Of a DNA stretch of 64,000 nucleotides, positions 35,244 through 64,000 are shown piece by piece; the first letter of the stretch is position 1, and each line of letters begins with the position of its first letter. The position numbers were made by a program, and so were the translations under genes. The stretch covers positions 2,784,001 to 2,848,000 of the forward strand of contig OZ244744.1 of NCBI GenBank assembly GCA_965219455.1, read 5' to 3'. The DNA is from Candidatus Latescibacterota bacterium. GTDB taxonomy: Bacteria > Latescibacterota > UBA2968 > GCA-2709665. The notes under the pieces are model-generated. The model was not told where the DNA came from. It ran no database searches and worked only from the letters and a program-made list of their open reading frames with translations.

Positions 35244-35540
35244 ATGAACTCAGCAACTGGCCGTTGGGTAAGCGGCGAAGACTTTTTCAATCGTGATGGT
35301 GAATTGCAAATACTGGAAACTCTGGTCCGAGAACGCAACCACGTGTTGCTTACTGGACAGCGGCGAATGGGAAAGACCAGCATCGTAAGGGAACTCGGAC
35401 GCAGGCTCGAAGACGACGACGATGGTCACCGCTTTGCTTCACGTTTGCTGAAAGATTGGTGGACGGCCCGCTTCCGAGATCATCATATCCCCATCCGACG
35501 CCGGTTTACTGACAATAATTCGGGGGAGATAACCCAATGA
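35244..35540 (+). pseudogene. P-loop ATPase gene with a large in-frame internal deletion
   Basis: G.WVSGEDFFNR and Walker A GQRRMGKTS run straight into a C-terminal-type motif (GHRFASRLLKDWW); no Walker B; 98 aa. Confidence 0.65.
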
Positions 35541-38314
35541 CCGGATCGAAACCAACGAATCAGACCGTCAGTCGCCCAATCCGAAAATTCAATCCGGGAA
35601 CGTTTCAATCCGACGAAGAGGTGATCGAGCAGTTCGTCGTTCGCAAGCGCGAACTTGACACCGTACTCGAGGTCCTCCGTGGAAACGTTGACTCGGCGTC
35701 GTGCCAGCACGTCATGGTTGTGGGCCCTCGTGGTCGCGGAAAAACCATGCTCCTGGTCCGTACCGCCGCAGAATTGAGAACTGACCAGCAACTCGCGAAA
35801 TGCCTATTCCCGGTGCGGTTCATGGAAGAGAGCCAGGAGATCTTCAACGTCGCCGATTTCTGGCTAGAGACGCTGTTCCATCTGGCAAGGGAGGCTGCGG
35901 AACATCATCCATGCCTATCACGGGATCTGCGTGAGACATACGGCGACCTGTCTTCCCGTTGGCGTGAACAATCGCACGAGGCGCTCGCCCGCGCCGCCGT
36001 TCTGGAGGCAGCGGATCGGCTGGACAGGAAACTCGTGCTCATGGTCGAGAACCTGCAATCGCTATGCGAGAACGTGGACGAGGATTTCGGCTGGAAGCTT
36101 AGAGGGGCGCTTCAGTCGGAACCCCAGGTCACGTTGCTTGCCTCCTCAACGAGTCGATTCGAGGGTCTGGACGACGCGGAGCAGCCCTTTTTCGAACTGT
36201 TTCGAACCATCAATCTGCAACCGCTGGCAACGGAAGAATGCCGCCTTCTCTGGAATGTCGTGAGCGGAGATAGGGTGAGTTCTCGGGAGATCAGGCCGCT
36301 CCAGATCCTGACCGGCGGCAACCCACGCCTTCTGGTTATCATTGCGGAGTTCGCGAGGCACAGATCCCTGCGCCTGCTGATGGAAGAACTCGTTACGCTG
36401 ATTGACGAGCACACGGAGTATTTCCGCGGACACCTGGAGGTTTTTGCGAAGACCGAACGGCGTGTTTACATCTCGGTGATAGACCTCTGGCAGCCGTCGA
36501 GCGCCGGCGAGATTGCGGCGCGCGCCCGCATGGACATCCGAAAAGTATCGACAATGCTAGGAAGGTTGGTCGAGCGGGGCGCGGTCATCGTGGAGGGCAG
36601 TGGCAGGAAAAGACTGTACGCCCCATCCGAGCCGCTCTACAGCATCTATTACAAGCTGCGGCGCGAACGCGACGAGGCCGCCATAGTGGAGAATCTGATT
36701 CAATTTATGGTTGCGTTTTACGACATTGGCGAGTTGGACCGGATTCGTGAACAGTTATACTCCGAGGCAATCGGTTCAGATGTCATTCACGCCGGATTAG
36801 ACCGCGCGCTAGCTAAAATTCCACCTGCCGACGACAGTCGCTCCGAAAAGAAATGGGATTTCGTTAAAGACGCTACGGTTAAGGTTGAGATCTATCATCA
36901 AGAAATGGCTGAAAGACGGCTTGACGAAGATATCGAGGACGCGTTTCAGGAACATGCGTGGCAGAGAGTCATCGAAATCGCGGACGAGGTGTTCACGTCC
37001 CCGAACGCAGAATCGCGGCAACTGTCAGAAGTATTCATCGCCCGCATTTTGCATGCGAAGGCCTTCGCTTACGAGCAACTTCGAGATTTTCACGCGGTTA
37101 TCGCAGCGTGCAATGAGCTGGTCAAGCGCTTTGGCGAAAGCGGTGAGCCGGAAATTCGGACGCGGGTCGCTGCTGCGTTGTTGGATAAGGGGAGAGCGAA
37201 ACAACATTTGGGCGATACGGAGGGCGCCGCTGTATACTACGATGAGGTCGTAACGTGCGGCAGGGAAACCAAAGTACCAAGTCTTCAGTGGTTGGCCGTA
37301 CCGGCATTGCATTACAAGGGAGGAGCAAGAAAGGAACAGGGTGATCTGCAGGGCGCCATTGCGGCGTTCGACGAAGTGGTCGAACTCTATGGCGAAAACA
37401 ACGTGCCGGATCTTCAGTTTTGGGTTGCAGCGTCGTTGGTCCACAAAGCAGAAGCGATCAAAGAACAGGGCGATACGGCCGGAGCCGTTGCATTAAACAA
37501 CAACGTGATTGAACGCTACGCTGACAGCACCATTCCGGAGGTCCAGGAATGGGTTGCCGCCGCTCTGATCGACAAGGGTAGAACGGAAACGCAACTAGGC
37601 GATTTGGAGGGAGCCGTTGCAAACTTCCAGGAGGTGGTCGAACGATACGGCGACGGCGATGCGTTGGGTCTTCAGAAGTATATCGCCGGGGCGTTGATCG
37701 ATAAGGGAAGAACGAAAAAGGAATTGGGTGATGCGGAGGGAGCCATTGCGTCGTGGGACGATATGGTTGAGCGTTATGGTGACAGCGATGTATCGGATCT
37801 TCAGAGGTTTGTTGTCGGGGCGTTGGTCGACAAGGGAAGATGCCAGGCCGAAATGGGTCGTGCAGATGAAGCGCTGCGCGTGTGTGAGCAACTCGAAAAA
37901 AGAGTCCACGCTCTGCCTGATAATGGGAGCGGCCAAATTGTGTGGCAGGCACGGTGTATACGGGCTCTGGCGCTGATGGTACGGAATGAGAGTGTCGCGG
38001 CTATGGAAGTGTTTTGCTCCGTGTATGCCGCGGTTCCTCCTGACAACGAAGTTGGATTGAACTGGATGCTTTGGATTGTGCCCAACCTGGTCGCTGCCGG
38101 TGCTGAGGAGCGTGAGCTTGTTGCAATCCTGTTGAGTGATCCCGCGAAATCCGCTGCACTGGCGCCCCTCATCGTCGCCCTTCGCGAGCGACAGGGCGAG
38201 ACGGTCCGCGCACCTGCGGAAGTTCGAGAGGTCGCCGGGGATGTGCGAGAACGCATTGAGGAACGCGTAAAGTGTTGGGAGGAAACTACAACAGATTCCG
38301 CGGCCGTTGGATAA
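35537..38314 (+). CDS. STAND-like NTPase + winged helix + TPR-like repeat protein
   Basis: GPRGRGKT, LMVENL, TGGNPRL, wHTH region, several ~45-aa repeats (AL.DKG....LGD.EGA.A...VVERYGD). Confidence 0.8.
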   Translation: MTGSKPTNQTVSRPIRKFNPGTFQSDEEVIEQFVVRKRELDTVLEVLRGNVDSASCQHVMVVGPRGRGKTMLLVRTAAELRTDQQLAKCLFPVRFMEESQEIFNVADFWLETLFHLAREAAEHHPCLSRDLRETYGDLSSRWREQSHEALARAAVLEAADRLDRKLVLMVENLQSLCENVDEDFGWKLRGALQSEPQVTLLASSTSRFEGLDDAEQPFFELFRTINLQPLATEECRLLWNVVSGDRVSSREIRPLQILTGGNPRLLVIIAEFARHRSLRLLMEELVTLIDEHTEYFRGHLEVFAKTERRVYISVIDLWQPSSAGEIAARARMDIRKVSTMLGRLVERGAVIVEGSGRKRLYAPSEPLYSIYYKLRRERDEAAIVENLIQFMVAFYDIGELDRIREQLYSEAIGSDVIHAGLDRALAKIPPADDSRSEKKWDFVKDATVKVEIYHQEMAERRLDEDIEDAFQEHAWQRVIEIADEVFTSPNAESRQLSEVFIARILHAKAFAYEQLRDFHAVIAACNELVKRFGESGEPEIRTRVAAALLDKGRAKQHLGDTEGAAVYYDEVVTCGRETKVPSLQWLAVPALHYKGGARKEQGDLQGAIAAFDEVVELYGENNVPDLQFWVAASLVHKAEAIKEQGDTAGAVALNNNVIERYADSTIPEVQEWVAAALIDKGRTETQLGDLEGAVANFQEVVERYGDGDALGLQKYIAGALIDKGRTKKELGDAEGAIASWDDMVERYGDSDVSDLQRFVVGALVDKGRCQAEMGRADEALRVCEQLEKRVHALPDNGSGQIVWQARCIRALALMVRNESVAAMEVFCSVYAAVPPDNEVGLNWMLWIVPNLVAAGAEERELVAILLSDPAKSAALAPLIVALRERQGETVRAPAEVREVAGDVRERIEERVKCWEETTTDSAAVG

Positions 38315-38672: not shown

Positions 38673-40651
<1,979 letters not shown>

Positions 40652-41980: not shown

Positions 41981-42730
41981 ATGGAACCGGTCGATCAGGC
42001 GCGTGAAGCCATTGAACAGAGCGATATCAAAAGGTTGGAGGCGTTGATCGCATCGCATCCTGGCCTGCCCAATCTCAGGTCGGAGGACAACGATCGCACG
42101 CTCTTGCATACGATTGCGGATTATCCCGGGCACAAACCGAAGGGCGTGGAGATGGCCCGGCTGGTCGTCGACGCGGGAGGCGACGTGAACGCGCGTTTTC
42201 AGCACGGGCAGGTTGAATCGGTGAAGGAGACGCCCCTGCACTGGGCGGCCAGCAACGACGACATCGACCTGGCGGAACTGCTGCTCGATGAAGGGGCGGA
42301 AATCGATAGTGACGGCGGCGTCATTGCAAACGGGACGCCGATATGGAATGCCGTCATTTTTCGCTGCATAAACGTCGCCAGACTATTGATCCATAGAGGC
42401 TCGTCGTCAAATCTCATGACTGCCGCGGGCGCCGGACGACGTGACCTCGTGGATCGGTTCTTTGACGATGAGGGAAACGTGACGGAACGTGCCGGGGCCC
42501 TGCCCTGCTGGGATGCGCCGAGACCGCCAAAGACGGCGCTGGACAGCGCGTTCGGTTTCGCGTGTCGAAACGGCCACACGACCATCGCCAGGATCCTCTT
42601 CGAGCGCGGCGCCGACCCGGGCTGGGTGAATCCGGCCGGTGAATCCGCGTTTCTTCAGGCGAAACGAGGCAATCACAAGATCGTCGTGGATTGGATGAAG
42701 GCGCGCGGCATCGCGCCGGACGGCGCTTGA
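41981..42730 (+). CDS. Ankyrin repeat protein
   Basis: TLLH, TPLHWAA..LLLD.GA.I, TPIWNAV. Confidence 0.85.
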   Translation: MEPVDQAREAIEQSDIKRLEALIASHPGLPNLRSEDNDRTLLHTIADYPGHKPKGVEMARLVVDAGGDVNARFQHGQVESVKETPLHWAASNDDIDLAELLLDEGAEIDSDGGVIANGTPIWNAVIFRCINVARLLIHRGSSSNLMTAAGAGRRDLVDRFFDDEGNVTERAGALPCWDAPRPPKTALDSAFGFACRNGHTTIARILFERGADPGWVNPAGESAFLQAKRGNHKIVVDWMKARGIAPDGA

Positions 42731-42802
42731 TTACCAATTCAGGGGCAAAGTGGAGTCAACTAAGCGGTTTTTCGAGATTCAACTCTTGTGTTTATTATTT
42801 GA

Positions 42803-42834
42803 TTGACAAACTTAGCATAACTAAATATATTTAG
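42803..42834 (+). promoter_or_regulatory. Sigma70-type promoter with overlapping palindromic operator, probably leaderless
   Basis: TTGACA (42803-42808), 17 bp spacer, TATATT (42826-42831); palindrome CTAAATATATTTAG (42821-42834); ATG 7 bp after the -10 box, no RBS. Confidence 0.7.
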
Positions 42835-42838
42835 CAAT

Positions 42839-43198
42839 ATGGCAAAGACGGAAGGAAAATTAGGCACGTTTCTCGCGTCGGCAAGAAATAAGCTCGAGTT
42901 GACGCTCCGGGCTGTCGAGGCAAAGACTGGGATCTCGAACGCCTATTTAAGCCAGTTGGAACACGGCAAGATAAAGGCGCCGGCCCCGCAGAATTTGTAC
43001 AAACTCGCCGAACTCTATCGTGTACCCTACGAACTATTGATGGAATTGGCCGGTTATCCAGTGCCAAATGCTGAATCCACCGAAGGTCGTTCATCTATCG
43101 ACAACTTCGCTGCTCGCATTGGAACTGTCACATTGGAAGAAGAAGAAGCACTCGTGGAGTACCTCCAGTTCATTCGATCGCGGAGGCGGAGGCGGTAA
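42839..43198 (+). CDS. XRE-family helix-turn-helix transcriptional regulator
   Basis: LTLRAVEAKTGISNAYLSQLEHGK...LAELY.V....LMELAGY. Confidence 0.9.
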   Translation: MAKTEGKLGTFLASARNKLELTLRAVEAKTGISNAYLSQLEHGKIKAPAPQNLYKLAELYRVPYELLMELAGYPVPNAESTEGRSSIDNFAARIGTVTLEEEEALVEYLQFIRSRRRRR

Positions 43199-43482
43199 TG
43201 CGGTGGTCCTATTCAGGAAGTCGTTCGTTTCGTCAATGCCAGCGACAGGGGACATCGAATCCGCTCCACATCAGGCGTGCGGCTGGAAATATGCCCATTG
43301 AACATTGCCTGTCCGATGTTTTTTTGCTTAGCTGTCTAACCTGGACACGCCCGGAAGGTGCGATGCGTCTGCCGATTTCGATCAAGTTATGTGTTCGGAG
43401 TCTATTCGATGAAGCCGCGGAATACGATCAAGACGCCATCGAGTTTGCAAGTGCCCATCTTCAGGAGGAGGTCGCAAAATGA
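43198..43482 (+). pseudogene. Deletion-fusion remnant: Cas4/RecB-like nuclease N-terminus joined to a prokaryotic Argonaute PIWI C-terminus
   Basis: aa1-17 WSYSGSRSFRQCQRQ resembles the S.S...F..C.R start of PD-(D/E)xK Cas4/AddB-like proteins; aa18 onward GTSNPLHI...AG..PIE...DVF.LS.L.W....RLPISIKLC.R matches the PIWI C-terminus. Confidence 0.7.
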
Positions 43483-43850
43483 GTGATTTGAGTTTATTGA
43501 GGGGAGTCTACGCCGATGTGGAAACATACGGCAGCCTGATAGACAGGGTAATTGCGCGGCTGGGTCGCGTAAGGACCGGTCCCCCGGATCGGGATCAGAA
43601 GAAGCTCGGCCAGCTTCTCATTTATGCAAACGATCAGGGTCTAAGATCGGAGTCCCTTGAGGCCCTGACGCTGGATAGCATTCTGCGGTTAAATACAGGC
43701 GAGCCTTTCGACGGCTTAGATCTGAAGCGACTAGGGGAATACCTTCTAAGCGGGGAAGTCGATGCCAGCTATAATAGGCAGCTAGAAACGCTTGCTCAGA
43801 GACTGGAGCAAGAAAGGGCGGAAATTGCGCGCCGACTCCGGAGGCGTTGA
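43479..43850 (+). CDS. Hypothetical helical protein (123 aa)
   Basis: GGAGG RBS; ATGA overlap with the upstream stop; TGATG overlap with the downstream gene. Confidence 0.7.
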   Translation: MSDLSLLRGVYADVETYGSLIDRVIARLGRVRTGPPDRDQKKLGQLLIYANDQGLRSESLEALTLDSILRLNTGEPFDGLDLKRLGEYLLSGEVDASYNRQLETLAQRLEQERAEIARRLRRR

Positions 43851-45001
43851 TGATCGAAGCCTATCTCGTCGGTTCGATCAACCAATCTATGCAGCGAATA
43901 CGGTATTTGCGCCAGATCGTACATGGAACGTATCGACGCGAATACGACGGTTTACGTCAAATTTGTCTGACGCATCTAGACGCCGCACAGGAATTGCTCC
44001 AATGCCTAACCGAGGAGACTGTCGTCGCTAAAGAACTACAGACACCTCGACGTGTGAGGGAATTCACACGAATCGTGGAACAGCTAGAAACGGCTGAGAA
44101 CGTTGGTGTATTCGCCCTAAGCAGAGTAAGCCAAGACGATGACTTCCTGAACCGCTTGATTACGGATGTTTGTCGCGAGATCAATTACCCGCTGATTCCT
44201 CCAGTCGTCAGTCACATATCTCAGGACTATTTCCATATATACCTCAACTTCAATCTACTATGTCTGCCGTTGGTGGAAAGTAGGTTTTTTCTACACCTCC
44301 CCGACATATATCACGAACTCTGTCATCTATTCCATCGGGAGCAGAATGCCGATTTGCCGCTTCTCAAGGCGTATCATGTTGCTTTCGAACGGAGCCTTTT
44401 CGAGGCCGTAAGGCACTACCGCGATAGTATCGTCGCTGCCGAACGCGTAAGTGAGCCAACAGGTAAGCTCTACCAACTCCAACTATGGCAAACATGTTGG
44501 GTCAAATACTGGATGCAGGAATTTTACTGTGACCTGTTCGGGGTACTTGAGGCGGGGCCGGCCTTTGTCTGGTCACACTATCACCTCTGTATAAAACGCG
44601 GTGGTGATCCCTTCGAGACTCCTCTGAAGTTTGTATCAACGCACCCGGCAGACGATGCACGTATGCGTGCGATGCAGTTGATGCTGACGGCGAACGGCTT
44701 CGACGGGGAAGTGAAGCGAATCGATGCAGCCTGGCGGGATTTTGTTGTTATAATGGGCTACAAAGTAGAGCCCGAATACCGTCAGTGTTACCCCGAAGAG
44801 TTGCTATCGAGAATCGTCTCCGCGACAAAAGAGGGAGTCGAAGGGACCGGTGTGGTGACAGCAAAGCCGGACACATTGGCGCCAATCGTCGATCTGCTGA
44901 ACTCGGCGTGGCAGGAATTCTGGCGCGCACCAGAAGACTATCAGGCGTGGGAAGCGAAAAGGTACGACGAATTGAGGCGCTCTTTGCGTGCCGACTGGTA
45001 A
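43850..45001 (+). CDS. Putative HExxH zinc metallopeptidase
   Basis: YHELCH, QEFYCDLFG (ExxxD), THP...R; ATG overlaps the upstream TGA. Confidence 0.72.
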   Translation: MIEAYLVGSINQSMQRIRYLRQIVHGTYRREYDGLRQICLTHLDAAQELLQCLTEETVVAKELQTPRRVREFTRIVEQLETAENVGVFALSRVSQDDDFLNRLITDVCREINYPLIPPVVSHISQDYFHIYLNFNLLCLPLVESRFFLHLPDIYHELCHLFHREQNADLPLLKAYHVAFERSLFEAVRHYRDSIVAAERVSEPTGKLYQLQLWQTCWVKYWMQEFYCDLFGVLEAGPAFVWSHYHLCIKRGGDPFETPLKFVSTHPADDARMRAMQLMLTANGFDGEVKRIDAAWRDFVVIMGYKVEPEYRQCYPEELLSRIVSATKEGVEGTGVVTAKPDTLAPIVDLLNSAWQEFWRAPEDYQAWEAKRYDELRRSLRADW

Positions 45002-45625
45002 ATGTGGGGCAGTTCCAACGTGCGCTGCATTAACAAAGTGCTTGACGTGAATCCTGAGGCATCCTCCACCGTCTTTCTGGTCGGCGATTTCCAGGGCGGG
45101 TCTTATGTATTGCGGATTCGACTCAAGGAGAACGCCGCGCTTTCTTTTGGCGGATTCAAGCGTGGGAAGATCATATCGCTTTTGGCGGGTGAGTACCTCT
45201 ACGCAGGTTCCGCCATGTCGAAGAAGGGCGCCGCGTCACTGGCCAACCGGCTGACTCGCCACGCCACCCGGAGCGGCCGGAAGCGACCTCACAACATCCG
45301 GGACGAAATGCTGCGGCGATTCAATGCCATCGGTCTCGGAAACGGAAATCTCACTCGAAAAAGACTCAAGAACCTGCACTGGAACGTCGACCACCTGCTC
45401 GACCTGCCGGCTGCCGAACTGACCGGCGCCTGCATCATTCGAACCCGGGAGCGCCTGGAAGCACGCCTCGGTCGGTTTCTGGAGCGTGATCCCCATACCA
45501 TCGTCATTGAAAAAGGTCTGGGCGCAAACGACGTTCCGGGTAACACGCACATCCTCCGTCTCTCGGGCGGAGACGCCTGGTGGACGTCCCTTCCTCAGCG
45601 GCTCAGCGTCTATTTTGGTCTCTAA
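45002..45625 (+). CDS. DUF123 / GIY-YIG-like (Uri superfamily) endonuclease
   Basis: GSYVL, YLYAGSA...L..RL.RH, LHWNVDHLL, GLGAND. Confidence 0.75.
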   Translation: MWGSSNVRCINKVLDVNPEASSTVFLVGDFQGGSYVLRIRLKENAALSFGGFKRGKIISLLAGEYLYAGSAMSKKGAASLANRLTRHATRSGRKRPHNIRDEMLRRFNAIGLGNGNLTRKRLKNLHWNVDHLLDLPAAELTGACIIRTRERLEARLGRFLERDPHTIVIEKGLGANDVPGNTHILRLSGGDAWWTSLPQRLSVYFGL

Positions 45626-45670
45626 AGTGCTTGTATTTAGACTGGTACCACTTCCCCTCTCTTCCTTTCT

Positions 45671-46284
45671 TTTTTCTTCGTCCTTTTTCTTGTACGCCCA
45701 AGAAAAAGGACCAAAAAGAACGGCGCCGTTCGGCACGGGGCCGGTTTTTCCGCGAATGACCTCAAGGGCATCACCTGGTCCGGTGCCCTGCATACGTATG
45801 CGTCTACACAGGGCAACGGTGTTGGACGGAATAACGCGGAAAAACCCCCCACTCCACCACCGTTCGCAGGAGGGATAAAGCTCAGGTGCGGGCGAACCCC
45901 TCTACAACAAAAGCTGCTGGTTTTTCCGTACACAGATGATTATTGACGTTAAAGCGCGGAGAACCAACCTCCACTCGCACAGCGGGTGGCCTGTTGACCC
46001 GGCGGTTTATCGGGGCAACAGGGGACGCCTGGTTCTGGCGTTCGAGGTTGCTGGTGAGCGGCGCGATTTTTGCCGCGAACAAACCCCCCACGCCACCACC
46101 GGGCGCGTGACGGATAAATTTCGTGAGTGAAACCGAGAAATGCACCTCTCGAAAACTGTGCAGATGAACGGTACATACGATAGCCCGCAAACCCTTCCGT
46201 GCCGTCTTTGAATTTGTAGGGGCAACCCTTGTGGTTGCCCTCTATATGGCGCGGGCAGGCGGGCGACCCGTGGGTCGCCCCTAC
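45671..46284. repeat. Composite structured non-coding repeat, copy A (87-bp core + stem modules + REP pair)
   Basis: 45671-45757 identical to 62415-62501; shared 3' end GAATTTGTAGGGGCAACCCTTGTGGTTGCCC. Confidence 0.85.
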
Positions 46285-62936: not shown

Positions 62937-64000
62937 GTGCGCCGTGAAAAGGCGCGGATCTTCAGTGGGTGAGAGTCCCACCCGACAAATGTTGCTGCAG
63001 TCGGAAGCAACCGGAGCGGTGAGGGAGGTAACGACATCGCCGAAGCCTCCGGTGTAAAGGGTCGCGCGGCGACCCCGCGAATATGCAGGCCGTAACGTGA
63101 GTGAACGCTGAGCAAGCCTCGAAAACTGCAATGCGGGCGCCGACCCGATTATCAGCCGGGGAAGGCCGCCGTCGTTGGGGAAGAGAGCAACGGGCGCACC
63201 CAACGGTCCCGCCGGGGTATTGGCGACGGCATGCATAGAAGGAGATCCGACGCAACACGGGAAGCCCCCGGCGGCGGAATGTGGACACCAACCGGCAGCC
63301 CGCGAGGGCCAGGCCGGGCCGTGGGGGGTGGCGGAGAGGCCCGTAGTACCCGTGATGCCGGGTAATGCCGGTGGAGGTAAGGGGCCTTGGTTCAAGGGCA
63401 ACGTCAAAGGAGCGAGAGCCGGGAGATTGGTGTGAGCCTAAGACCTCCAGACAAGGTTCGGAAGTTGCAGAGGACGTTGTATGCCAAAGCGAAGGAATCG
63501 CCCGATTACCGATTCTACGCACTGTATGACAAAGTGTATCGCGAGGACATCCTGCACTATGCCTACCGTTGTTGCAAGGCCAACGGCGGTGCGGCGGGCG
63601 TGGACAAAGAGCGCTTCGAGGATATCGAGTCATATGGACGAGAGCGGTGGTTGGGCGAACTGTCGGAAGCCGTGAGAAGCAAATCGTATCGGGCGTCTCC
63701 GATCCGCCGGGAGTATATCCCCAAGCCGAACGGTAAGCAAAGACCGCTTGGCATCCCGACGATCAAGGACCGGATGGTGCAAACGGCTGCGATGCTGGTA
63801 TTGGAGCCGATCTTTGAAGCGGACCTGCCAGAACAGCAGTATGCCTACCGTCCGAAGCGGAGCGCGCACGACGCCATCAGAGCCGTACACACCCTGGTGA
63901 ACAAGGGCCATACACAGGTGATCGAGGCCGACTTGAGCGGCTACTTCGACACGATCCCGCACGCCGAGTTGATGAAATCGGTGGCGCGTCGCATCTCGGA
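62937..64000 (+). mobile_element. Group II intron, copy 2 (3'-truncated by the window edge)
   Basis: 5' GTGCGCCGTGAAAAGGCGCGG as in copy 1; colinear but diverged RNA domains. Confidence 0.92.
63432..64000 (+). CDS. ltrA: Group II intron reverse transcriptase/maturase (partial)
   Basis: GTG AGC CTA AGA CCT... near-identical to the copy 1 ORF through EADLSGYFD. Confidence 0.9.
   Translation, partial: MSLRPPDKVRKLQRTLYAKAKESPDYRFYALYDKVYREDILHYAYRCCKANGGAAGVDKERFEDIESYGRERWLGELSEAVRSKSYRASPIRREYIPKPNGKQRPLGIPTIKDRMVQTAAMLVLEPIFEADLPEQQYAYRPKRSAHDAIRAVHTLVNKGHTQVIEADLSGYFDTIPHAELMKSVARRIS

What the first reader, a model, noticed from the sequence alone, without database searches (positions are those of the whole stretch)
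42839..45001. Candidate new pAgo-associated system: HTH - nuclease - pAgo - 123-aa protein - HExxH metallopeptidase
Seen: four ORFs are translationally coupled (TAATG at 43196, ATGA at 43479, TGATG at 43848) and share a lower-GC composition than the flanks. The last two look intact: a helical 123-aa protein and a 384-aa protein with HELCH, ExxCD and THP motifs. Knowledge: characterised pAgo partners include TIR/SIR2-APAZ, nucleases, Cas4-like enzymes and membrane effectors. I do not know of a characterised peptidase plus small-protein module. Inference: the ancestral locus was a defence operon in which pAgo guide/target sensing may be coupled to proteolysis of the small protein or the HTH repressor. 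The DUF123/GIY-YIG gene starting directly after the stop (45002) may or may not belong to it.
Basis: partly seen in the sequence, partly recalled or inferred. Interest (0 to 1): 0.8.

Follow-up and report, generated by a model that had tools for sequence, protein, structure and literature searches.

The report
Argonaute operon remnant keeping peptidase pair
This is the decayed remainder of a bacterial Argonaute defence operon that has lost its Argonaute and nuclease but kept a small protein and a zinc-peptidase-like protein, a pair that sits behind every relative of this Argonaute examined and has no name or known function.

Summary
Four coupled ORFs lie at 42839-45001. The second, 94 aa, is an in-frame fusion of codons 1-17 of a Cas4-like nuclease to the last 76 codons of a pAgo, so neither enzyme survives here. 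The HTH, the 123-aa protein (p123) and the 383-aa HExxH protein (p384) are intact.

Related loci carry a five-gene operon: HTH, Cas4-like nuclease, pAgo, p123, p384. It is complete in 31 of 31 metagenome loci with enough upstream DNA. p123 and p384 follow the pAgo in 10 of 10 pAgo-bearing genomes of the phylum and on 5 of 5 plasmids, including the biochemically studied Runella RslAgo.

The pAgo belongs to the PliAgo/RslAgo DNA-guided, RNA-cleaving group. A 2022 paper noted its constant operon but named only the regulator and the nuclease.

p384 keeps HExxH plus ExxxD invariant, and matches no Pfam, NCBIfam, PADLOC or PHROG family and no solved fold. A complex model (0.90, best control 0.41) puts p123's conserved N-terminus in p384's cleft.

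Several separate lineages lost the pAgo yet kept intact p123 and p384.

Most likely p123 and p384 form a latent peptidase-inhibitor pair that serves as an accessory arm of the system. This mechanism is inferred. DUF123 is not part of it.

The parts
42803..42831 (+). sigma-70-like promoter (TTGACA, 17 nt, TATATT) just upstream of the HTH gene
   Evidence: 11 of 12 matches. It is the only promoter-like site in 42600-45800, and shuffles give 1.9 on average, so it is a consensus match only. No inverted repeat was found in 42730-42850.
42839..43198 (+). XRE-type HTH regulator, 119 aa, first gene of the operon
   Evidence: Pfam HTH_3 4.4e-12 and HTH_19 5.7e-11. PADLOC HTH_VI 2.3e-8 and capH 2.6e-6. 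A homologue stands in the same position in 30 of 31 complete metagenome loci.
43198..43482 (+). 94-aa in-frame fusion remnant. Cas4-like nuclease (ACE2-like) codons 1-17 occupy 43198-43248 and pAgo codons 742-817 occupy 43249-43476. The deletion junction lies at about 43245-43248.
   Evidence: PADLOC pAgo_II 1.8e-31 over positions 706-776 of 782, and Aga_Cas4-like_Nuc over positions 1-17. blastp to the L009 proteins: ACE 1-17 at 94% and pAgo 742-817 at 83%. Contigs bridge the junction in runs X1 and X3, and contigs of X5 and X6 diverge at 43244 and 43247. The fourth catalytic Asp of the pAgo is Val here.
43479..43850 (+). p123: small all-helical protein with a conserved N-terminus (MSDLSLL...) and a basic C-terminus. 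Predicted partner of p384.
   Evidence: 153 homologues, none with a Pfam domain. No hit in Pfam, NCBIfam, PADLOC or PHROGs. AF2 pLDDT 85.5 with five helices. Complex model.
43850..45001 (+). p384: 383-aa predicted zinc metallopeptidase-like protein with HELCH 156-160, EFYCD 225-229 and THP 265-267 (numbering of the 384-aa ORF that starts at TTG 43847)
   Evidence: 238 close homologues and 935 clusters at E<=1e-3. Invariant residues. AF2 pLDDT 89.2. No family hit. No fold match at E<=0.001.
45002..45625 (+). DUF123 gene: a flank, not part of the system
   Evidence: Pfam DUF123 4.6e-15. A homologue follows p384 only in the window, L001 and L002, all of the same genus, and nowhere else among the loci held.
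41981..42730 (+). ankyrin-repeat gene: the upstream flank of the insertion site
   Evidence: Pfam Ank_2 3.1e-22. It is syntenic in L001 and L002 only.

Best explanation
The locus is the remnant of a five-gene Argonaute operon of the PliAgo/RslAgo type, the DNA-guided RNA-cleaving long pAgos. The gene order is XRE-HTH regulator, Cas4-family nuclease (ACE2-like, 313 aa), pAgo (about 818 aa), a small helical protein (p123), and a roughly 380-aa HExxH...ExxxD protein (p384).

In this genome an in-frame deletion joined nuclease codon 17 to pAgo codon 742. Argonaute function is therefore gone, while HTH, p123 and p384 remain whole and translationally coupled.

p123 and p384 form a constant, so far unnamed two-gene arm of these systems. 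I read p384 as a gluzincin-like zinc peptidase held latent by p123, whose conserved N-terminal tail lies in the catalytic cleft as an inhibitor or pseudo-substrate. This resembles an antitoxin-toxin pair.

In the complete system, release or cleavage of p123 would free the peptidase as an effector or checkpoint beside RNA cleavage by the pAgo. In the remnant the pair persists by itself.

Shown:
- the anatomy of the locus
- the deletion
- the co-occurrence with pAgo
- the motif conservation

Supported by a model only: the p123-p384 complex.

Inferred:
- peptidase activity
- inhibition by p123
- the trigger
- the substrate
For: Anatomy.

Operon conservation, sampling from p384:
- One search gave 11 genome loci. 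Five have all five genes whole (L005, L006, L008, L009, L010). Five more have pAgo and/or the nuclease split by insertions, deleted or fragmented (L001, L002, L003, L007, L011). One (L004) has NsnABC upstream instead.
- One search kept the best 80 of 351 confirmed metagenome loci. Of the 31 with at least 4400 nt upstream, 31 have a pAgo of 700 aa or more, 31 have the nuclease, 30 have the HTH, and 24 have p123 by phmmer.

Operon conservation, sampling from the pAgo:
- 10 of 168 genomes of the phylum match the pAgo, and all 10 have p123 and p384 next to it. Four of these pAgos are only 37-38% identical to the query.
- 4 of 4 plasmid records match at 22-48% identity, and the A2 profile hits the last gene of each at 8e-100 to 6.5e-130.
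- A fifth plasmid, from Emticicia, was found from p384.

Identity of the pAgo:
- PDB 7R8K (PliAgo) matches at E 1e-211. D563, E592, D626, D762, K565 and K759 align to identical residues in the L009 pAgo.
- The Runella pAgo in the same five-gene layout is WP_013921749.1, the accession of the R. slithyformis pAgo expressed in PMC9360449.

Peptidase reading:
- H156, E157, H160, E225, D229, H266, P267 and R272 are invariant in 75 sequences of 21-63% identity.
- All 5 plasmid homologues keep HExxH and ExxCD.
- The model shows a three-stranded sheet, then the HExxH helix, then a long helix that carries E225.
- HExxH followed by ExxxD as the gluzincin signature is recalled knowledge.

Complex:
- ipSAE is 0.90 in each of 3 runs. 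The best of 3 controls is 0.41.
- That mark was reached by 58 of 80 solved complexes and by 2 of 110 mismatched pairs. These counts hold only roughly, because my own alignments were used.
- The runs agree in at least 97% of contacts, and the partner's pLDDT is at least 88.
- p123 residues 1-10 touch p384 residues 153, 156-157, 160, 220-225, 244, 247, 261-266 and the edge strand 125-134.
- The N-terminus MS-x-[LI]-[GS] is kept even in the plasmid homologues.

Persistence without pAgo. HTH, p123 and p384 are intact where the pAgo is deleted:
- G000, junction ACE17/pAgo742
- G054, junction ACE28/pAgo720
- G046 and G047, junction about ACE85/pAgo791
- G143 and G139
. p123 and p384 are also intact in L004 and in L036/L039. 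Three of four remnant alleles keep one open frame from the nuclease's start; two of them (the window's and G046/G047's) run in the pAgo frame to the pAgo's own stop, which overlaps p123's start.
Against: - No biochemical evidence exists for any p384 or p123.
- p384 matches no peptidase family. Pfam M78 is hit weakly by only 4 of 75 members (best E 0.011), and M48 and M50 by one member each.
- Foldseek found no solved or viral fold at E<=0.001. The nearest peptidase rows are selecase (probability 0.38 over 74 columns) and ZMPSTE24 at rank 10. Calling p384 a zincin therefore rests on motifs and topology.
- The pAgo of this group is an active slicer and works alone in vitro (PMC9360449). It does not need a helper effector in the way inactive pAgos do.
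- The loci are related to one another, and several metagenome loci are duplicates, for example L021/L022, L043/L045/L046 and L069/L070/L072. The counts therefore overstate independence.
- dN/dS cannot show selection after the loss. The window's remnant still looks constrained against intact relatives (omega 0.08-0.11), so its deletion may be recent.
- Disruptions hit the 3.4 kb of nuclease plus pAgo more often than the 1.5 kb pair partly because the target is larger.
Confidence: 0.55

Rival explanations
1. p384 is a regulator-cleaving peptidase of the CapP/IrrE/ImmA kind. On a stress or infection signal it cuts the operon's HTH repressor, or in the sigma-70 variant an anti-sigma-like protein, and so switches the operon on. 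p123 would be its sensor or brake.
For: - The HTH hits PADLOC capH at 2.6e-6.
- HTH plus HExxH peptidase pairs are known regulators of defence operons (CapH/CapP preprint 10.1101/2022.04.27.489752, passages read).
- Pfam M78 is the commonest weak hit, in 4 of 75 members.
- Both regulator types seen with this operon, an HTH or a sigma-70 factor with a 180-aa protein, could in principle be released by proteolysis.
Against: - No capP model of PADLOC and no PF06114 hit for the window's protein.
- No sheet-rich GAF-like C-terminal domain. Residues 147-382 of the model are helical.
- The third ligand candidate lies 65 residues after HExxH. In CapP it lies 29 residues after.
- The gene is last in the operon, on the same strand and three genes away from the HTH. 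capP lies beside capH on the opposite strand.
- The pair is unchanged whether the regulator is an HTH, a sigma factor, or none. The Aphanizomenonaceae plasmid has no annotated regulator, and the 295-nt gap upstream of its nuclease holds no convincing ORF, although this was not scanned against HTH models.
- The cleft is predicted to hold p123, not the HTH. The HTH was not tested.
Confidence: 0.2
2. p123 and p384 are a self-contained toxin-antitoxin or abortive-infection module. It merely travels with the pAgo operon and has no mechanistic link to Argonaute.
For: - Intact p123-p384 pairs, with the HTH in the genome loci, outlive the pAgo in several lineages.
- L004 has the pair behind NsnABC.
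- Divergent pairs of a 148-150-aa and a 371-378-aa protein lie beside a STAND NTPase fragment plus an Mrr nuclease (L129), and beside a type IIG restriction enzyme plus AbiU (L130).
- Gene order and 4-nt overlaps resemble antitoxin-toxin pairs.
Against: - The pair is adjacent, on the same strand and stop-start coupled to the pAgo gene in 31 of 31, 10 of 10 and 5 of 5 samples. This holds while the pAgo diverges to 22% identity and the regulator changes.
- A hitch-hiker would be expected to be lost or swapped in some of these.
- No case of an intact pAgo of this group without the pair was found.
Confidence: 0.15
3. p384 is not a peptidase. The HExxH...ExxxD site serves another metal-dependent reaction or only a structural metal, and the pair helps guide supply or loading for the pAgo.
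For: No peptidase family or fold match. The long N-terminal helical domain (residues 1-111) has no assigned role.
Against: - The invariant set H, E, H, E, D plus a downstream His is the classical thermolysin-like arrangement (recalled).
- A sheet edge strand next to the HExxH helix contacts an extended peptide in the complex model.
- Some family members are fused to a CHAT caspase-like protease domain, which fits a proteolytic setting.
- PliAgo loads and cleaves in vitro without helpers (PMC9360449).
Confidence: 0.08
4. The four ORFs are chance neighbours in a defence island.
For: Other defence genes do lie nearby in related loci: CBASS after L009 and L104, and NsnABC in L004.
Against: The same gene order recurs across phyla and on plasmids.
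Confidence: 0.01

Closest known systems
PliAgo/RslAgo group of DNA-guided, RNA-cleaving pAgos and their operon (Lisitskaya et al. 2022, PMC9360449; passages read)
   Same: - The pAgo of the intact relatives matches PliAgo (PDB 7R8K) at E 1e-211, with the DEDD tetrad and K565/K759 conserved.
- It is preceded by a PD-(D/E)XK nuclease and an HTH regulator, as the paper describes.
- The studied RslAgo (WP_013921749.1) sits in the same five-gene layout.
   Different: - The paper's text names only the regulator and the nuclease. The small protein and the HExxH protein are not named or discussed in the text I read, and the figures and supplements were not visible.
- The window has lost the pAgo and the nuclease.
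[quoted passage not shown] 2025, PMC12094033; passages read)
   Same: - The nuclease is 313 aa, the mean length given for ACE2.
- It has one Cys near the N-terminus, three near the C-terminus and a D-x-K motif.
- It hits PADLOC Aga_Cas4-like_Nuc at 7e-125.
   Different: - I did not place the nuclease in their tree, so ACE2 membership is by likeness only.
- That paper characterises APACE1 and says its conclusions cannot be carried over to APACE2.
- 'peptidase', 'HTH' and 'helix-turn-helix' do not occur in its main text. All 6 occurrences of 'protease' are reagents or methods.
CapH/CapP, IrrE/DdrO and ImmR/ImmA: an HTH repressor plus an M78 zinc peptidase that cleaves it
   Same: An XRE-type HTH and an HExxH protein occur in one defence operon. 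Latency of the peptidase is a shared theme: CapP has an internal cysteine switch, and here a partner's tail is predicted in the cleft.
   Different: - No PF06114 or capP hit.
- No GAF domain.
- The genes are not adjacent to each other and are not divergent from the operon.
- The regulator is replaceable by a sigma factor.
Lit peptidase of prophage e14 (Pfam Peptidase_U49), an abortive-infection zinc peptidase (function recalled)
   Same: A dormant HExxH peptidase in a defence setting. The nearest named clusters in the ESM Atlas carry Peptidase_U49 or M48.
   Different: The Atlas scores are only 0.79-0.80, below the level at which the tool treats a hit as more than a lead. PF10463 is absent from the 25 families listed of the 47 matched.
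Effector-coupled Argonaute and CRISPR systems: SPARTA/SPARSA, SPARDA, long-B BPAN/BPAS/BPAM (PMC10620215, search listing only), and Craspase of type III-E CRISPR (recalled)
   Same: A guide-directed sensor is encoded with a separate enzyme that could act on the cell. Craspase is the precedent for nucleic-acid sensing that switches on a protease.
   Different: Those pAgos are catalytically inactive and their effectors are NADases, nucleases or membrane proteins. Here the pAgo is an active slicer, the partner is a metallopeptidase-like protein with its own small binder, and no link between them has been shown.
Protein inhibitors that plug a metallopeptidase cleft with their N-terminus (TIMP with MMPs, Inh with serralysins; recalled)
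   Same: The complex model puts the first ten residues of p123 along the cleft and at the HExxH site.
   Different: This is an analogy of mechanism only. There is no sequence or fold relation, and p123 matches no solved fold.

Membership tests
PliAgo-group D-R pAgo operon | A long pAgo with the DEDD tetrad and the group-specific Lys next to the first Asp | tested here: not met
   In the window only pAgo codons 742-817 remain, and the fourth Asp is Val. In the intact relative L009 all four tetrad residues and K565/K759 align to identical residues of PliAgo. The ancestral locus was therefore a member, and the window is a remnant.
PliAgo-group D-R pAgo operon | [quoted passage not shown] | tested here: met
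   The HTH is intact. The nuclease is reduced to codons 1-17 in the window. Both are complete in 30-31 of 31 related loci.
ACE2 (Argonaute-associated Cas4 family enzyme 2) | About 313 aa, a D...DxK motif, one N-terminal and three C-terminal Cys, and placement in the ACE2 clade | tested here: inconclusive
   Length 313 aa, C14, DWK and CxxCx5C were seen in L009. Pfam PDDEXK_1 1.2e-11 and PADLOC Aga_Cas4-like_Nuc 7e-125. Clade placement was not done.
Gluzincin zinc metallopeptidases | HExxH on a helix, followed by a Glu ligand on a later helix (ExxxD) | tested here: met
   H156, E157, H160, E225 and D229 are invariant in 75 sequences. They lie on helices 153-163 and 205-236, after a three-stranded sheet. 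The definition of the signature is recalled.
Gluzincin zinc metallopeptidases | Fold similarity to a solved zincin, and zinc-dependent peptidase activity | tested here: inconclusive
   No Foldseek match at E<=0.001. The best peptidase row is selecase at probability 0.38. The VIA-align libraries were not available. Activity is not testable here.
CapP / IrrE / ImmA (Peptidase M78, PF06114) | [quoted passage not shown] | tested here: not met
   No PF06114 or capP hit for the window's protein. 4 of 75 relatives give weak M78 hits, best E 0.011. The spacing is 65 residues. The C-terminal half is all helical.
CapP / IrrE / ImmA (Peptidase M78, PF06114) | The gene lies beside its HTH substrate gene, usually divergent from the regulated operon | tested here: not met
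   HTH is first and p384 is last on the same strand, three genes apart in intact loci.
Lit / Peptidase_U49 | A match to PF10463 | tested here: not met
   No hit for the window's protein. PF10463 is absent from the 25 families listed of the 47 matched at E<=1 across the 75 members. There is only an Atlas lead at 0.80.
Type II toxin-antitoxin pair | A small protein gene overlapping a larger downstream gene, with the two proteins binding each other | tested here: met
   TGATG overlap. The complex model scores 0.90 against 0.41 for the best control. This is model support, not proof.
Type II toxin-antitoxin pair | The larger protein is toxic alone and is neutralised by the smaller one | not testable with these tools
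   This needs expression tests.
PADLOC 'Class II' Argonaute system | All genes of the locus are covered by the system's models | tested here: not met
   The pAgo_II and Aga_Cas4-like_Nuc models hit. p123 and p384 have no PADLOC family at E<=0.1. DefenseFinder could not be run.

The most novel reading that the evidence does not exclude
D-R Argonaute systems signal through proteolysis. When the pAgo, loaded with DNA guides made with the help of the Cas4-like nuclease, engages invader RNA, p123 is displaced or cut and the p384 metallopeptidase is set free to cleave a host or invader protein. This would be an Argonaute counterpart of the type III-E CRISPR Craspase. The p123-p384 pair can also live on by itself as an addictive protease-inhibitor module after the Argonaute is lost.
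Probability: 0.22. Interest if true: 0.85.

Novelty: new variant of a known kind. Interest (0 to 1): 0.66.

Why it matters
The DNA-guided, RNA-cleaving pAgos (PliAgo, RslAgo, PnyAgo, MbpAgo) have been studied as purified single proteins and as tools. Their natural role is stated to be open in PMC9360449 (discussion).

Every operon of this group that I could inspect also encodes a predicted latent zinc peptidase and its small binder, and no library names either. In vivo work on these pAgos that leaves the two genes out may therefore miss half of the system.

If the peptidase is an effector or checkpoint, this would be the first Argonaute system with a proteolytic arm. The hypothesis can be tested directly with the Runella or Rhizobium plasmid operons.

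The repeated survival of the peptidase pair after loss of the Argonaute suggests a module that is selected, or addictive, by itself.

For this window alone the finding is modest: a decayed locus with no Argonaute function.

Tried and rejected
Led nowhere:
- A profile of 33 homologues against PDB sequences gave only chance hits to ribosomal protein L29 at E 0.6-0.8.
- Foldseek of the p384 model against PDB and BFVD found nothing at E<=0.001. The same held for the p123 model against PDB.
- PHROGs and NCBIfam gave nothing for p123 or p384.
- The ESM Atlas returned only unnamed clusters at 0.97-0.98. Peptidase_U49 and M48 clusters scored 0.79-0.80, which I treat as a lead only.
- No RNA holder was listed for the stretch, so nothing can be said about expression.
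- No inverted repeat lies in the promoter region.
- Parts of the stretch without long contig cover in X5 and X6 are not interpreted.

Considered and dropped:
- I first read the window and L001 as sharing one ancestral deletion, with all later divergence under purifying selection. Synonymous divergence differs along the locus (HTH 0.89, remnant 1.59, p123 0.33, p384 0.42) and the junctions differ. The alleles are therefore mosaic or the deletions separate. dN/dS of 0.11-0.17 cannot be read as selection after the loss.
- The p384 nucleotide identity printed (0.51) is an artefact of an unaligned indel and is not used.
- The excess of disruptions in nuclease and pAgo over p123 and p384 among the 12 genome loci is not significant once target size is allowed for. 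My rough estimate is 0.69^6, about 0.11.
- DUF123 as a member of the system was rejected.

Literature:
- Searches for 'APACE2' found no paper on this pair.
- The same was true for Argonaute + metallopeptidase + pAgo.
- The same was true for Argonaute + metalloprotease + prokaryotic Argonaute + operon.
- The same was true for RslAgo/MbpAgo/PnyAgo/D-R pAgos from 2023 on. For those papers I saw listings and abstract starts only.
- Figure 1b and the supplements of PMC9360449, the orthogroup tables of PMC6299218 and Table S1 of PMC12094033 were not visible. They may show or list these genes.


Full report
WHAT IS IN THE WINDOW

Four ORFs on the + strand run from 42839 to 45001. They are joined by TAATG (43196), ATGA (43479) and TGATG (43848), which I read directly.

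- The first ORF is an XRE-type HTH of 119 aa (Pfam HTH_3 4.4e-12; PADLOC HTH_VI and capH).
- The second, 94 aa, is not a gene of its own kind. Residues 1-17 match the first 17 positions of PADLOC's Argonaute-associated Cas4-like nuclease. Residues 13-83 match positions 706-776 of 782 of PADLOC pAgo_II (E 1.8e-31). blastp against an intact relative gives nuclease 1-17 and pAgo 742-817.
- The third ORF (p123, 123 aa) and the fourth (p384) are whole. They have no hit in Pfam, NCBIfam, PADLOC or PHROGs.
- p384 most likely starts at ATG 43850, giving 383 aa, with GGAGG six bases upstream.

About 3.2 kb that held nearly all of the nuclease and pAgo genes has therefore been deleted, in frame. The own genome holds no other pAgo of this kind.

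Contigs of two runs of one study bridge the junction without differences. Contigs from two other studies diverge exactly at 43244 and 43247. This is a weak hint that sister strains carry more of the nuclease gene.

A sigma-70-like promoter lies at 42803-42831. G+C is somewhat lower than in the flanks.

THE ANCESTRAL OPERON

A scan with p384 of one genome per species gave 11 loci in MAGs. The records label them Latescibacterota, Entotheonella, Poribacteria, Binatia and Nitrospirales.

- Five loci (L005, L006, L008, L009, L010) show the complete order: HTH (about 119-131 aa), nuclease (313-320 aa), pAgo (about 809-828 aa), small protein (121-123 aa), p384. PADLOC scores for L009 are Aga_Cas4-like_Nuc 7e-125 and pAgo_II E=0.
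- In L002 the nuclease is split by an IS (DDE transposase). In L007 both the nuclease and the pAgo are split in this way.
- In L003 the pAgo is split by a 0.9-kb insert.
- L011 is broken throughout.
- L001 carries a deletion like the window's.
- In L004 the pair follows NsnA-NsnB-NsnC, with no pAgo.

A scan of metagenome contigs used a profile of members only 30-37% identical to one another. It kept the best 80 of 351 confirmed loci.

- 31 loci have at least 4400 nt upstream. All 31 have a pAgo of 700 aa or more and the nuclease, 30 have the HTH, and 24 have p123 by phmmer.
- In six of the other seven, a gap of 328-358 nt lies where p123 should be. In L089 the pAgo frame runs on to p384. I did not examine these slots further.
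- Six loci have 2900-4400 nt upstream. Three have a whole pAgo, L039 has a 73-aa pAgo tail, and L070 and L072 have the HTH and part of the nuclease but no pAgo.
- The remaining 43 loci are too short upstream to judge the whole operon. Of the 26 with 600-2900 nt, 25 show pAgo sequence up to the contig edge.

Several loci are duplicates or close kin, so these are not independent counts.

SAMPLING FROM THE pAgo SIDE

Searching with p384 cannot reveal pAgos that lack it, so I also searched from the pAgo.

- In the 168 genomes of the phylum, 10 match at E<=1e-20. Four of them are only 37-38% identical to the query. All 10 have p123 and p384 directly downstream.
- Among 72,556 plasmids, four match at 22-48% identity. 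In all four, a gene of 118-145 aa and a gene of 378-412 aa follow the pAgo, both annotated 'hypothetical protein'. The family profile hits the larger gene at 8e-100 to 6.5e-130.
- One of these plasmids is Runella slithyformis pRUNSL03. Its pAgo, WP_013921749.1, is the RslAgo studied biochemically. Its last gene is 33% identical to the window's p384 (E 9e-75).
- The Spirosoma plasmid, and an Emticicia plasmid found from p384, have a sigma-70 factor and a 180-aa protein in place of the HTH.
- The Aphanizomenonaceae plasmid has no regulator upstream.

The constant core is therefore nuclease, pAgo, small protein, p384. The regulator varies.

WHICH pAgO

The intact pAgo matches PDB 7R8K at E 1e-211. 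That entry is PliAgo (PMC9360449, data-availability passage).

The paper gives the tetrad as D563, E592, D626 and D762, and the group-specific lysines as K565 and K759. Counting along the printed alignment, all six align to identical residues in L009. These are active, DNA-guided, RNA-cleaving pAgos.

[quoted passage not shown] It names the nuclease and the HTH, or the sigma factor. It does not name the two downstream genes in the text I could read.

The nuclease fits the description of ACE2 in PMC12094033: mean length 313 aa, Cys pattern and DxK motif. I did not place it in their tree.

WHAT p384 AND p123 LOOK LIKE

The p384 family is large: 238 close homologues and 935 clusters at E<=1e-3. 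None carries a name or a Pfam domain.

In 75 members of 21-63% identity the invariant residues are E84, H156, E157, H160, E225, D229, G237, H266, P267 and R272. HExxH followed by ExxxD is the signature of thermolysin-like gluzincins. That point is recalled, not tested here.

The AF2 model (pLDDT 89.2, pTM 0.86) has these parts in order:
- four long N-terminal helices
- a three-stranded sheet
- the HExxH helix, residues 153-163
- a long helix that carries E225 and D229

Neither sequence profiles nor Foldseek link it to a solved structure. Weak Pfam hits in the family go to M78 (4 of 75 members), M48 (1) and M50 (1).

Two members are fused to a CHAT caspase-like domain and keep HExxH.

p123 is a five-helix protein with no fold match. 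It evolves fast. It keeps its first residues (MS-x-[LI]-[GS]...) and a basic C-terminus even in the plasmid operons.

THE PAIR

- The score was 0.90 in each of three runs. The best of three controls scored 0.41.
- That mark was reached by 58 of 80 solved complexes and by 2 of 110 mismatched pairs. These counts hold only roughly, because my own alignments were used.
- The runs agree in at least 97% of contacts, and the partner's pLDDT is at least 88.
- No like complex is solved, as far as searches show.
- p123 residues 1-10 lie against p384 residues 153, 156-157, 160, 220-225, 244, 247, 261-266 and the edge strand 125-134. Residue 5 touches H160 and residue 6 touches residue 224.
- The helical body of p123 packs on the N-terminal helices of p384 (residues 61-78).

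The model thus places a conserved N-terminal peptide in the presumed catalytic cleft. It could sit there as an inhibitor or as a substrate. This supports binding but does not show it.

LOSS OF THE ARGONAUTE, SURVIVAL OF THE PAIR

The family profile finds p384 in 17 of the 168 genomes, seven more than the pAgo query found.

- Four of the seven (G046, G047, G143, G139) have an intact HTH, p123 and p384 with only a scrap between them. In G046 and G047 the scrap is nuclease 1 to about 85 fused in frame to pAgo 791-818. In G143 it is nuclease 1-23 plus pAgo 574-593 and a shifted tail. G139 has a further eroded form of the G143 scrap.
- Together with the window (junction 17/742) and G054, which is L001 (junction 28/720, out of frame, one TGA), this makes at least three and probably four or five separate deletion histories in two genera.
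- Outside the phylum there are also L004, L036/L039 and L069-L072.
- Two of the four remnant alleles (the window's and G046/G047's) keep one open frame from the nuclease's start codon to the pAgo's stop codon, which overlaps p123's start. G143's frame also opens at the nuclease's start, but shifts and ends just before p123. This would preserve translational coupling into p123 and p384.
- A divergent branch of the family, with a 148-150-aa and a 371-378-aa gene, lies in three settings. In G053 it follows an IS-split divergent pAgo. In G081 it lies beside a STAND NTPase fragment and an Mrr nuclease. In G138 it lies beside a type IIG enzyme and AbiU.

dN/dS between the window and L001 is 0.11-0.17. 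The locus is mosaic and the deletions may be recent, since the window's remnant against intact pAgos has omega 0.08-0.11. I therefore do not claim selection after the loss. I claim only that the ORFs and all invariant residues are intact.

HOW IT MOST LIKELY WORKS

- Shown: the window holds a remnant of a PliAgo-type operon, and p123 and p384 are constant members of that operon.
- Supported by a model: p123 binds p384 with its N-terminus in the cleft.
- Inferred: p384 is a zinc peptidase kept latent by p123. In the full system the pair is an effector or checkpoint arm released on infection. Without the Argonaute it behaves as a self-standing, possibly addictive, pair under the HTH's control.

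The main rival is a CapP-like regulator-cleaving role. It fails the family tests (no PF06114, no GAF domain, different gene position). It also fits poorly with a pair that stays the same while the regulator changes. It cannot be excluded, because HTH with p384 was not modelled.

FLANKS

The ankyrin gene upstream and the DUF123 gene downstream recur only in the two same-genus loci. They mark the chromosomal site, not the system.

One contig joint in run X5 (42730 to 45071, with 25 other letters between and a side of 30 letters) may be an empty site. It is too weak to lean on.

VERDICT

The operon is partly in print. Its two last genes are unnamed, and the predicted peptidase-inhibitor pair is a new component for Argonaute systems. 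The window itself is a decayed copy.

Noticed in passing
window 38699-40651: A group II intron. Rfam group-II-D1D4-4 hits at 38699-38836 (104 bits) and Intron_gpII at 40505-40651. An RT/maturase ORF lies at 39124-40494 (RVT_1 1.9e-36, GIIM 1.5e-13). A second D1-D4 match at 62963-63100 suggests another copy.
   Followed up: partly
window 35537-38314: A 925-aa ORF with an N-terminal AAA_16/STAND-like ATPase, a TrmB-like winged helix and many TPR repeats. It is a possible STAND-type sensor, so the neighbourhood may be a defence island.
   Followed up: no
L002 5737-7101; L007 3975-5183 and 7294-8478; L128 4256-5590; L036 396-1865: IS transposases (DDE_Tnp_1_4, DDE_Tnp_1, Mutator family, IS66) sit inside or beside the nuclease and pAgo genes in several related loci, while p123 and p384 stay whole.
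   Followed up: partly
proteins P0125 (609 aa), P0148 (632 aa), P0151 (799 aa): Family members with extra C-terminal parts. Two carry a CHAT caspase-like domain (Pfam 4.3e-9 and 2.4e-4). P0151's tail holds a second HExxH string. All keep the p384 motifs. Their gene context could not be fetched.
   Followed up: partly
L105 8244-10406 and L107 1-1394: On both the Runella and the Spirosoma plasmids the pAgo operon lies next to a gene pair annotated multiubiquitin-domain protein plus ThiF family adenylyltransferase. In Runella a DUF6527 gene is also present. This recurs in 2 of 5 plasmid loci.
   Followed up: no
L009 11243-12811; L104 7882-8841: CBASS genes lie directly after the operon. L009 has a cyclase (PADLOC 8e-113) and a 2TM effector (6.8e-62). 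The Rhizobium plasmid has an annotated CBASS cGAMP-activated phospholipase.
   Followed up: no
L004 5923-9414: NsnA (5e-145), NsnB (1.3e-106) and NsnC (1e-51) stand where HTH, nuclease and pAgo would be, directly before p123 and p384.
   Followed up: partly
window 42839-45001 compared with L001 and L002: Divergence is mosaic. The window's HTH is closest to L002 (dS 0.37, against 0.89 to L001). Its p123 and p384 are closest to L001 (dS 0.33-0.42, against 0.98-1.29 to L002). This suggests recombination inside the operon.
   Followed up: partly
window 42730 / 45071: One contig of run X5 joins 42730 to 45071 with 25 other letters between, which would be a site without the whole four-gene locus. 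The side is only 30 letters, so this is a weak hint. 45071 lies 23 codons inside the DUF123 ORF as called from 45002.
   Followed up: no
L129 1473-6566; L130 2832-9850: A divergent branch of the pair (150 aa plus 371-374 aa, profile E about 1e-43 to 1e-45) lies beside a STAND NTPase fragment and an Mrr_cat nuclease in L129, and beside AbiU and a type IIG restriction-methylase in L130. No pAgo was detected in either.
   Followed up: partly
window 43399-43401: In the pAgo remnant, the residue aligned with the fourth catalytic Asp (PliAgo D762) is Val (KLCVRS, against KLCDRS in intact relatives and in L001).
   Followed up: yes
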